A DNA stretch of 64,000 nt, from contig OX597837.1 of the NCBI GenBank assembly GCA_951406725.2, positions 19,282,001 to 19,346,000 of the forward strand, in the 5' to 3' direction. Position numbers and translations under genes: made by a program. The notes under the pieces are model-generated. The model saw only the letters and a list, made by a program, of their open reading frames with translations. It was not told the origin of the DNA and searched no databases. The stretch comes from Octopus vulgaris (taxonomy: Eukaryota). Shown here one piece after another: positions 59,756 to 60,408 of the stretch (the first letter of the stretch is position 1; each line of letters opens with the position of its first letter).

Positions 59756-60408
59756 TATTAGAATTTTCTCTGATTTTTCAGATTTTTGTATGCTAGGCTA
59801 CTGGCTTTAAATTGATATTAATTAAATTAATATTAAATTTATCTCCCTCATTGTTTAAATGTTAAAATGAATATGTTCTCTAATAGGCAGCATTAACTGC
59901 AGTAAATTATTTGCTGCAGACTTTGCTTCCGAATTTTAGCGCGCCAGAACTAAGACATTTGAAATTAACCCCAATGTAATCGGTGAAACTAAACACGTGT
60001 CTGTTTTTATACGGAAAGCTGGTGGTTAGTTTTACAAATTACATTACATGTGGAACGATCACACTGACGAATCTACGGACAATTGGATTATATAAGTGAT
60101 TCATTTGTTAATAGGTGAAATCGCCGGTCTGTGAGTAATTCTGTTTTTTTATATAATTTTCATCTGTCTTGCCCGCATATGGTTCTGGTGTCCGCTGAAT
60201 TTTCCTCTAGAGAACATTCTTTTCTTTGTAGTTTGATAGTAGGTGATCTACTTCTAGCATGCGGCTGACCACCTAGTGGTTCTTCCCTTTAAATATACAC
60301 ATGTATTAGAATTTTCTCTGATTTTTCAGATTTTTGTATGCTAGGCTATTGGTTTTAAATTGATATTAATTAAATTAATATTAAATTTATCTCCCTCATT
60401 ATTTAAAT
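59756..60408 (+). mobile_element. Retrozyme-like unit: 548-bp period with 105-bp terminal direct repeats and a central hammerhead
   Basis: 59756-59860 matches 60304-60408 with 3 mismatches; (TA)n flanks; no ORF. Confidence 0.78.
60059..60134 (+). ncRNA. Type I hammerhead ribozyme with long helix II and GUC cleavage site
   Basis: TCACA-CTGACGA-ATCTA..TAGGT-GAAA-TCGCCGG-TC-TGTGA. Confidence 0.82.

What the first reader, a model, noticed from the sequence alone, without database searches (positions are those of the whole stretch)
59756..60408. Second, sequence-unrelated 548-bp unit with 105-bp redundancy and a central hammerhead
Seen: same architecture as the 53.4-kb element ((TA)n, repeat, hammerhead, repeat, (TA)n) but no similarity visible outside the catalytic core; helix II is extended by an imperfect hairpin. 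Inference: two independent families with the same layout 6 kb apart suggest a general class of (TA)n-targeting ribozyme retroelements, probably mobilised by Penelope-like enzymes.
Basis: partly seen in the sequence, partly recalled or inferred. Interest (0 to 1): 0.75.

Follow-up and report, generated by a model that had tools for sequence, protein, structure and literature searches.

The report
Penelope-type hammerhead retrozyme with long tail
This is one aged copy of a family of hundreds of protein-free 548-base repeats that carry a predicted self-cutting RNA motif and sit mostly in TA-type microsatellites; its 105-base terminal repeat spans two fixed end points shared across the family, likely the two places where a Penelope-type enzyme starts copying the RNA.

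Summary
Observation confirmed: 548-bp period, 105-bp redundancy (102/105 identical), type I hammerhead with predicted cleavage after 60129, and no detectable similarity to the 53.4-kb element. The family has hundreds of copies. In 94 of 99 loci the 3' end lies at one of two sites, E1 and E2, about 105 nt apart; 5' ends are scattered. The redundancy is therefore the E1-E2 interval, a long version of the Penelope 'tail', not an LTR or a local duplication. In all, 36 of 99 loci have an inverted 5' arm; where both arm ends are defined, 28 of 29 pair E1 with E2. Intact Penelope-like elements in this genome show the same two ends. Hammerhead helices covary and stem III stays palindromic, suggesting dimeric cleavage. 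This copy is decayed and has one hammerhead, so it cannot itself yield a circle. Cleavage, circles and the partner enzyme are not shown. Verdict: new member of the known animal non-LTR retrozymes, not a new class. Earlier notes of this scan describe sister families in this genome and the two-start-point idea in others.

The parts
59728..59758 (.). Left target remnant, (TATG)n(TA)n microsatellite; its last bases overlap the TA-like E1 patch (microhomology)
   Evidence: sequence; BLAST extends the unit match to unit position 534 through this patch
59756..59860 (+). First copy of the E1-E2 interval ('105-bp repeat'); the 5' junction falls at E1
   Evidence: solo E1-E2 inserts of 108-123 bp at 6 of 99 loci
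59760..60307 (+). One full 548-bp non-coding unit (34% GC, no ATG-ORF over 30 aa on either strand of the circularised unit); folds well as a circle on the + strand
   Evidence: -148.0 kcal/mol, z -7.3 against 40 shuffles; minus strand z -2.1
60043..60139 (+). Type I hammerhead: distal helix I 60043-47/60135-39, helix I 60059-63/60130-34, core CUGACGA 60064-70, helix II 60071-75/60112-16 with long hairpin extension, GAAA 60117-20, near-palindromic stem III 60120-28, predicted cleavage after 60129
60289..60307 (+). E1: first recurrent 3' end site of the family (TA/CA-like patch), inferred reverse-transcription start site
   Evidence: 47 of 99 loci end here
60304..60408 (+). Second copy of the E1-E2 interval, the long 'tail'; contains an AT-rich hairpin at 60356-60387
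60399..60408 (+). E2: second recurrent 3' end site, used by this copy
   Evidence: 47 of 99 loci end here; 656 exact genome matches to a 22-mer ending here, 0 for the reversed control
60409..60560 (.). Right target remnant, (TA)n/(TATG)n microsatellite
   Evidence: sequence

Best explanation
This is a dispersed, decayed copy of a non-coding 548-bp hammerhead-bearing repeat family (an animal non-LTR retrozyme), likely inserted by a Penelope-like reverse transcriptase/GIY-YIG protein acting in trans. Shown: head-to-tail unit, two fixed 3' ends (E1, E2), scattered 5' ends, frequent inverted 5' arms that use the other end site, microsatellite flanks, and a covarying hammerhead with a palindromic stem III. 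Inferred: the enzyme cuts both strands of a (TA)n run. One DNA end primes cDNA at E2 and the other at E1 of one RNA. If both extend, a head-to-head two-armed insert results. If one extends, the other end anneals to a TA-like patch of the cDNA, often E1. Here cDNA started at E2, ran through the hammerhead site and one whole unit, and was closed at the next E1, so the redundancy equals the E1-E2 distance. Inferred and least sure: the template was a unit circle made from multi-unit loci by dimeric hammerhead cleavage and ligation (about 45%), or an uncleaved multimer. The partner is likely a Neptune/Nematis-type element (motif-based label, no tree) but was not identified.
For: Ends: 47 E1, 47 E2, 5 other among 99 distinct loci; in the 29 loci found with the hammerhead region alone, 19 E1, 7 E2, 3 other. 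Flanks: microsatellite within 24 nt at 80 of 99 3' and 60 of 99 5' ends against a background of 12-18%. Two-arm rule: of 36 inverted loci, 21 E2/E1, 7 E1/E2, 1 E2/E2, 0 E1/E1, and 7 with one end elsewhere (Fisher p 5e-6). In 30 position-ordered loci picked by the E2 22-mer, 18 had an inverted arm: 11 E2/E1, 0 E2/E2, 7 with an end elsewhere or unresolved (counted by eye). The 53.4-kb family behaves alike: 7 of 10 inverted loci pair its two end zones, 3 are irregular (by eye). Intact 781-aa RT plus C-terminal GIY-YIG elements are abundant; nearly all their pLTR matches stop at one of two sites 35-40 nt apart, followed by (TA)n in the copies printed, and both two-armed copies seen pair the two sites. 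Covariation on 30 copies: 93.4% of cells paired, 21 cells with double changes (0 of 500 shuffles reach it; slid controls 1-4). Stem III length variants stay palindromic. Both-strand extension and two internal start sites are shown in vitro for the Anolis element (PMC11167929).
Against: No partner found: neither BLAST, nhmmer nor the covariance model links the unit to the pLTRs of 50 Penelope-like loci; the only unit match, in L139, is a separate insertion 2.6 kb from the endonuclease. Only 150 of 6136 GIY-YIG candidates were scored. No 5' end at the cleavage site (0 of 99 at unit 369-373), so there is no genomic trace of cleavage. The covariation count by pairs is not above shuffles (6 pairs, 233 of 500), and some double changes follow subfamilies or CpG decay. 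Single-template support is partial: rare alleles are shared within a locus in 54 of 248 (direct) and 44 of 162 (inverted) cases, but 0 of 3 in this copy, whose repeats (96.8%) are no closer than other loci (median 97.7%). The active fold of this copy costs 9.4 kcal/mol over the minimum (family median 8.7). PMC11167929 reports no homology at the start site and no strand difference in start-site use in vitro. All samples except one search are ranked by similarity to this copy.
Confidence: 0.8

Rival explanations
1. Same enzyme and start sites, but the template is an uncleaved linear multimer transcribed from tandem loci; the hammerhead is rarely used and no circle is involved.
For: A tandem array of about 20 units exists (G000:C2 near 212.11 Mb). 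Most copies that reach the hammerhead read through it. In PMC11167929 unprocessed RNA was the dominant substrate. Only 5 of 99 forward arms hold two or more hammerheads.
Against: Array units differ by 35-85 positions apart from a recent block duplication, whereas repeats within dispersed loci average 94-95% identity and share some rare alleles, which fits one unit copied twice. The unit folds strongly and strand-specifically as a circle. Core bases are intact in 26 of 30 copies.
Confidence: 0.4
2. Inverted arms arise by self-priming or fold-back (as proposed for rotifer Penelope elements) or by later recombination, not by priming from both DNA ends.
For: PMC3846280 interprets head-to-head junctions as self-priming on an antisense template. 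Seven of 36 inverted loci have one end away from E1/E2.
Against: A fold-back would not make the second arm stop at the other fixed site in 28 of 29 cases, flanked by microsatellite on both outer sides.
Confidence: 0.12
3. The units are terminal (pLTR) fragments of an undiscovered autonomous Penelope-like element rather than a separate non-autonomous family.
For: The same end behaviour as autonomous elements; retrozymes match pLTRs in Xenopus (bioRxiv 10.64898/2026.07.22.740005); the partner search was incomplete.
Against: Units join head-to-tail with no ORF, including a roughly 20-unit array. tblastn with two Penelope proteins over 183 family loci hit 5 loci, none as a shared continuation of the unit; masked upstream flanks of 37 loci share no common junction.
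Confidence: 0.06
4. The 105-bp repeat is an LTR, a target-site duplication or a local duplication, and the hammerhead is chance.
For: Rfam gives no hammerhead match.
Against: The repeat is internal unit sequence in dozens of loci; the same 5'-E1, full-unit, 3'-E2 layout occurs without inversion at L005, L014 and L024; redundancy length varies from none to many units; helices covary.
Confidence: 0.02

Closest known systems
Animal non-LTR retrozymes (Cervera and de la Pena 2020, PMC7229834, parts 2-4 of 6 read; Li, Clavereau and Pollet 2026, bioRxiv 10.64898/2026.07.22.740005, parts 1-3 of 5 read, supplements not seen)
   Same: Non-coding head-to-tail unit with one type I hammerhead, low GC, highly self-paired predicted circle, co-occurrence with Penelope-like elements; 548 bp lies within the 51-972 bp range of the 2026 preprint.
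   Different: Mostly dispersed, 5'-truncated insertions of up to about one unit with fixed 3' ends; long helix II with a GNRA-capped extension in most copies; no sequence link to a pLTR found; circles not shown here.
EN+ Penelope-like elements: pLTR, inverted 5' copy and 30-40 bp tail (PMC8557442 and PMC3846280, passages; Anolis Poseidon PAc, PMC11167929, parts 1-2 of 4)
   Same: 5' truncation, partial tandems, head-to-head inverted arm, tail on one arm only, two 3' end sites downstream of a hammerhead, AT-rich targets.
   Different: No ORF; tail about 105 bp, roughly three times the described length; both end sites resemble the (TA)n target, whereas PAc starts at non-homologous sites.
Metazoan type I hammerheads with short palindromic helix III that act as dimers (PMC4209133, passages)
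   Same: Helix III of 1-3 bp formed by a palindrome or near-palindrome in most copies.
   Different: Extended helix II; this copy has A-U instead of G-C closing helix II (2 of 30 copies); activity untested.

Membership tests
Animal non-LTR retrozyme | Type I hammerhead in each repeat unit | tested here: met
   core intact in 26 of 30
Animal non-LTR retrozyme | Head-to-tail tandem organisation with at least two hammerhead-bearing units somewhere in the family | tested here: met
   5 of 99 forward arms; array of about 20 units. This copy itself has one hammerhead.
Animal non-LTR retrozyme | Non-coding, no true LTRs | tested here: met
   no ATG-ORF over 30 aa; redundancy variable between copies. 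PBS and PPT were not searched for.
Animal non-LTR retrozyme | Self-cleavage in vitro | not testable with these tools
   needs an assay; only one of nine Xenopus dimers cleaved in the 2026 preprint
Animal non-LTR retrozyme | Expressed as linear and circular unit RNA | tested here: inconclusive
   only contigs of runs guessed to be RNA
Animal non-LTR retrozyme | Co-occurrence with autonomous Penelope-like elements | tested here: met
   intact 781-aa RT plus GIY-YIG ORFs
Non-autonomous derivative of a specific PLE | Sequence similarity to that element's pLTR | tested here: inconclusive
   none in 50 loci examined; most PLE families were not sampled
PLE-type insertion | 5' truncation, inverted 5' arm, tail between two 3' end sites on one arm only | tested here: met
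   tail longer than the described 30-40 bp
Autonomous PLE | RT plus GIY-YIG ORF | tested here: not met
Plant LTR retrozyme | Type III hammerhead within true LTRs | tested here: not met
   type I topology; no fixed terminal repeats

The most novel reading that the evidence does not exclude
A Penelope-type protein dimer engages one circular retrozyme RNA at two start sites, one per cut DNA strand, and does so in trans on RNAs with no sequence kinship to its own terminal repeat. The enigmatic one-sided Penelope tail would then be the gap between the two priming sites, stretchable to about 105 nt, and unrelated ribozyme circles could enter the genome by shape plus short TA patches alone.
Probability: 0.35. 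Interest if true: 0.68.

Novelty: new member of a known kind. Interest (0 to 1): 0.42.

Why it matters
The class is known, but its mobilisation by Penelope-like elements has mostly been argued from co-occurrence and pLTR similarity. The insertion footprints here give a countable rule (arms pair E1 with E2 in 28 of 29 cases, and likewise in an unrelated retrozyme and in autonomous elements). With young intact Penelope-like ORFs in the same genome, this makes two open questions directly testable: how the one-sided tail arises, and whether a circle is the template. Within my searches I found no paper on retrozymes in cephalopods and none stating the strand-to-start-site rule; the one-sided tail itself is in print.

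Tried and rejected
Rfam scans gave no hammerhead. Partner search by BLAST, nhmmer, covariance model and tblastn found none. A peak of 5' ends at the cleavage site was looked for and is absent. Expression: no RNA holder listed. Contigs of four guessed-RNA runs cover parts of the unit in fragments and cannot show strand, ends or circles. In run X12 (organism B, RNA only guessed) one 443-nt contig at depth 194 spans 59769-60202 across the cleavage site and restores the G-C pair and stem III; two more contigs at depth 93-99 cover 60182-60346 across the unit junction. This is a weak hint of one dominant full-unit variant; no silent control stretch was laid. No empty-site joint was seen. A possible hammerhead-like motif at 59108 (minus strand) lies in near-unique DNA (2 matches) and was not linked to the element. 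A look-up of earlier notes by sequence returned nothing. No TSD analysis was possible inside (TA)n. No tree of the Penelope proteins was built. The host is probably a cephalopod: this is my inference from genome size and microsatellite load, echoed in earlier notes, and no call establishes it. An Octopus vulgaris repeat paper (PMC13282606, passages) has no occurrence of ribozyme, hammerhead or retrozyme in its main text; its supplements, bioRxiv supplements and Repbase/Dfam were not seen, so the family may already exist there as an unnamed repeat.

Full report
1. Observation. Offset 548 is the only good period among 540-555. The repeats 59756-59860 and 60304-60408 agree at 102 of 105 bases, and both sides are TA-type microsatellite. 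A type I hammerhead is present: helix I TCACA/TGTGA, core CTGACGA at 60064, helix II ATCTA/TAGGT around a long hairpin, GAAA, short stem III, predicted cleavage after 60129. Rfam does not detect it. The 53.4-kb element (455-bp unit) shows no similarity by BLAST or by profile search in either direction.

2. The family. A search of the own genome (2.8 Gb, 227 contigs) gave 2772 first-look candidates, of which 39 were scored; full-length matches are 87-95% identical to this copy. Exact patterns give 656 matches for a 22-mer at the right end and 84 for a 15-mer of the hammerhead core, with 0 in reversed controls. So there are at least hundreds of copies, biased to the 3' part (the 15-mer also contains CpGs, which decay). 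Mean pairwise identity of 30 units is 90.7%. Majority-CpG positions diverge 11.5% against 4.9% elsewhere. Contigs of runs labelled as organisms C and D also hold the family. It is middle-aged, and this copy differs from the column majority at 32 of 549 positions.

3. Ends. Four searches (whole unit, hammerhead, 3' part, tail; top 30 loci each) gave 99 distinct loci out of 120. The 3' ends are at unit position 536-548 (E1) in 47, at 88-118 of the next unit (E2) in 47, and elsewhere in 5. The tail query favours E2; the hammerhead-only query gave 19 E1, 7 E2 and 3 other of 29. The 5' ends are spread over the unit, with a peak at E1 (15 in bin 520-539), partly favoured by the whole-unit query. Six loci are solo E1-E2 pieces of 108-123 bp, and three other loci repeat this copy's exact layout. 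Microsatellite abuts 80 of 99 3' ends and 60 of 99 5' ends against 12-18% background. The '105-bp repeat' is thus the E1-E2 interval.

4. Two arms. Thirty-six of 99 loci carry an inverted piece at the 5' side. Classified by both arm ends: 21 E2/E1, 7 E1/E2, 1 E2/E2, 0 E1/E1, and 7 with an end elsewhere. Fisher p is 5e-6, or 7e-6 after dropping one probable segmental duplicate. A second sample, the first 30 matches of the E2 22-mer in positional order, had 18 inverted loci: 11 E2/E1, none E2/E2, 3 whose second arm ended at 509-517 in BLAST, and 4 others (counted by eye because the script stopped before its tally; 4 of the 30 were in the earlier set and 2 look like duplicates of each other). The 53.4-kb family (1273 candidates) shows the same pattern.

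5. Autonomous elements. A GIY-YIG search gave 6136 candidates, of which 150 were scored, many in 781-aa open frames. [quoted passage not shown] Nearly all their terminal-repeat matches stop at two sites 35-40 nt apart; the copies printed run into (TA)n there; and the two two-armed copies seen use one site each. They carry minimal hammerhead-like motifs with a palindromic stem III, one with the U3-A8 core variant described in PMC4209133. No sequence link to the 548-bp unit was found.

6. Hammerhead. On 30 copies the proposed 29 pairs are 93.4% paired. Double changes occur in helix I (G-C to A-U in 6), helix II (C-G to U-A in 4, G-C to A-U in 2) and the extension (G-C to A-U in 5). Cells with double changes exceed all 500 shuffles, but the number of covarying pairs does not. 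Of 66 stem III reads, 56 are perfect palindromes or have a single central mismatch when G-U is allowed, including 6- and 8-nt length variants, as expected for dimeric cleavage (PMC4209133). A diverged subfamily keeps helices I-III with different sequence. This copy has A-U closing helix II, G-U wobbles in helices II and III and a decayed GNRA hairpin; its minimum-energy fold is not the active one.

7. Template. No 5' end lies at the cleavage site, and copies read across it once or twice, so the template was circular or uncleaved. The unit folds as a circle with z -7.3 on the + strand and -2.1 on the minus strand. Repeats within a locus are on average closer to each other (93.9% direct, 95.3% inverted) than to the median other locus (91.8%, 90.9%) but not closer than to the best other locus (96.1%, 97.0%); about a quarter of rare alleles are shared; this copy is uninformative. 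One array of about 20 units starts with an inverted E2 arm and ends at E1 before (TA)n; its units differ by 35-85 positions apart from a recent duplication. RNA evidence is inconclusive.

8. Mechanism. Inferred: double-strand cleavage in (TA)n by a Penelope-type protein, priming of one DNA end at E2 and the other at E1, variable extension, and joining by microhomology. In vitro, the Anolis element cleaves and extends both strands and starts at two internal sites bounding the tail, though without target homology and without a strand difference (PMC11167929). This copy would be an E2-primed cDNA of 1.19 units closed at E1.

9. Known and new. It works like a Penelope insertion and meets the testable features of an animal non-LTR retrozyme (PMC7229834; bioRxiv 10.64898/2026.07.22.740005). 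The one-sided tail is in print (PMC8557442, PMC3846280). New here are the family itself, a tail of about 105 bp, and a counted E1/E2 pairing rule shared by two unrelated retrozymes and autonomous elements. Earlier notes of this scan report several sister families in this genome and the same idea in other genomes; they are leads, not support. Verdict: new member of a known kind, interest 0.42.

Noticed in passing
window 53388-53883 (+): The sister 455-bp family: hammerhead with a 12-nt palindromic stem III and an A.A mismatch at the base of helix II in all 16 copies parsed; tandem of about 4 units at G000:C2 near 67.79 Mb.
   Followed up: partly
window 4868 (+), 34445 (-), 41083 (-), 59108 (-): Further minimal hammerhead-like motifs with palindromic stem III; 34445 and 41083 look related, one with a CCGA core. 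Probably Penelope terminal-repeat remnants.
   Followed up: partly
window 31483-33307: Near-perfect 1.8-kb palindrome centred on a long (TA)n run (97-100% arms); either an inverted duplication or an assembly fold-back.
   Followed up: no
L201-L202 (G000:C2:212107972-212119238): Array of about 20 units with truncated units stacked at E1 and a recent block duplication (three full units repeated with 0-2 differences); may record repeated insertion into its own end site.
   Followed up: partly
L121-L132: A young, abundant Penelope-like family with an intact 781-aa ORF preceded by a separate upstream ORF of up to 479 aa with no significant Pfam match.
   Followed up: partly
L209:1400-1560: A repeat resembling the 53.4-kb family that carries the stem III sequence typical of the 548-bp family.
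   Followed up: no
L252, L265: Diverged subfamily (about 80% identity) with an A at the base of helix II (A-U in L265), an 8-nt stem III with central G.A mismatches and a GUA cleavage triplet.
   Followed up: partly
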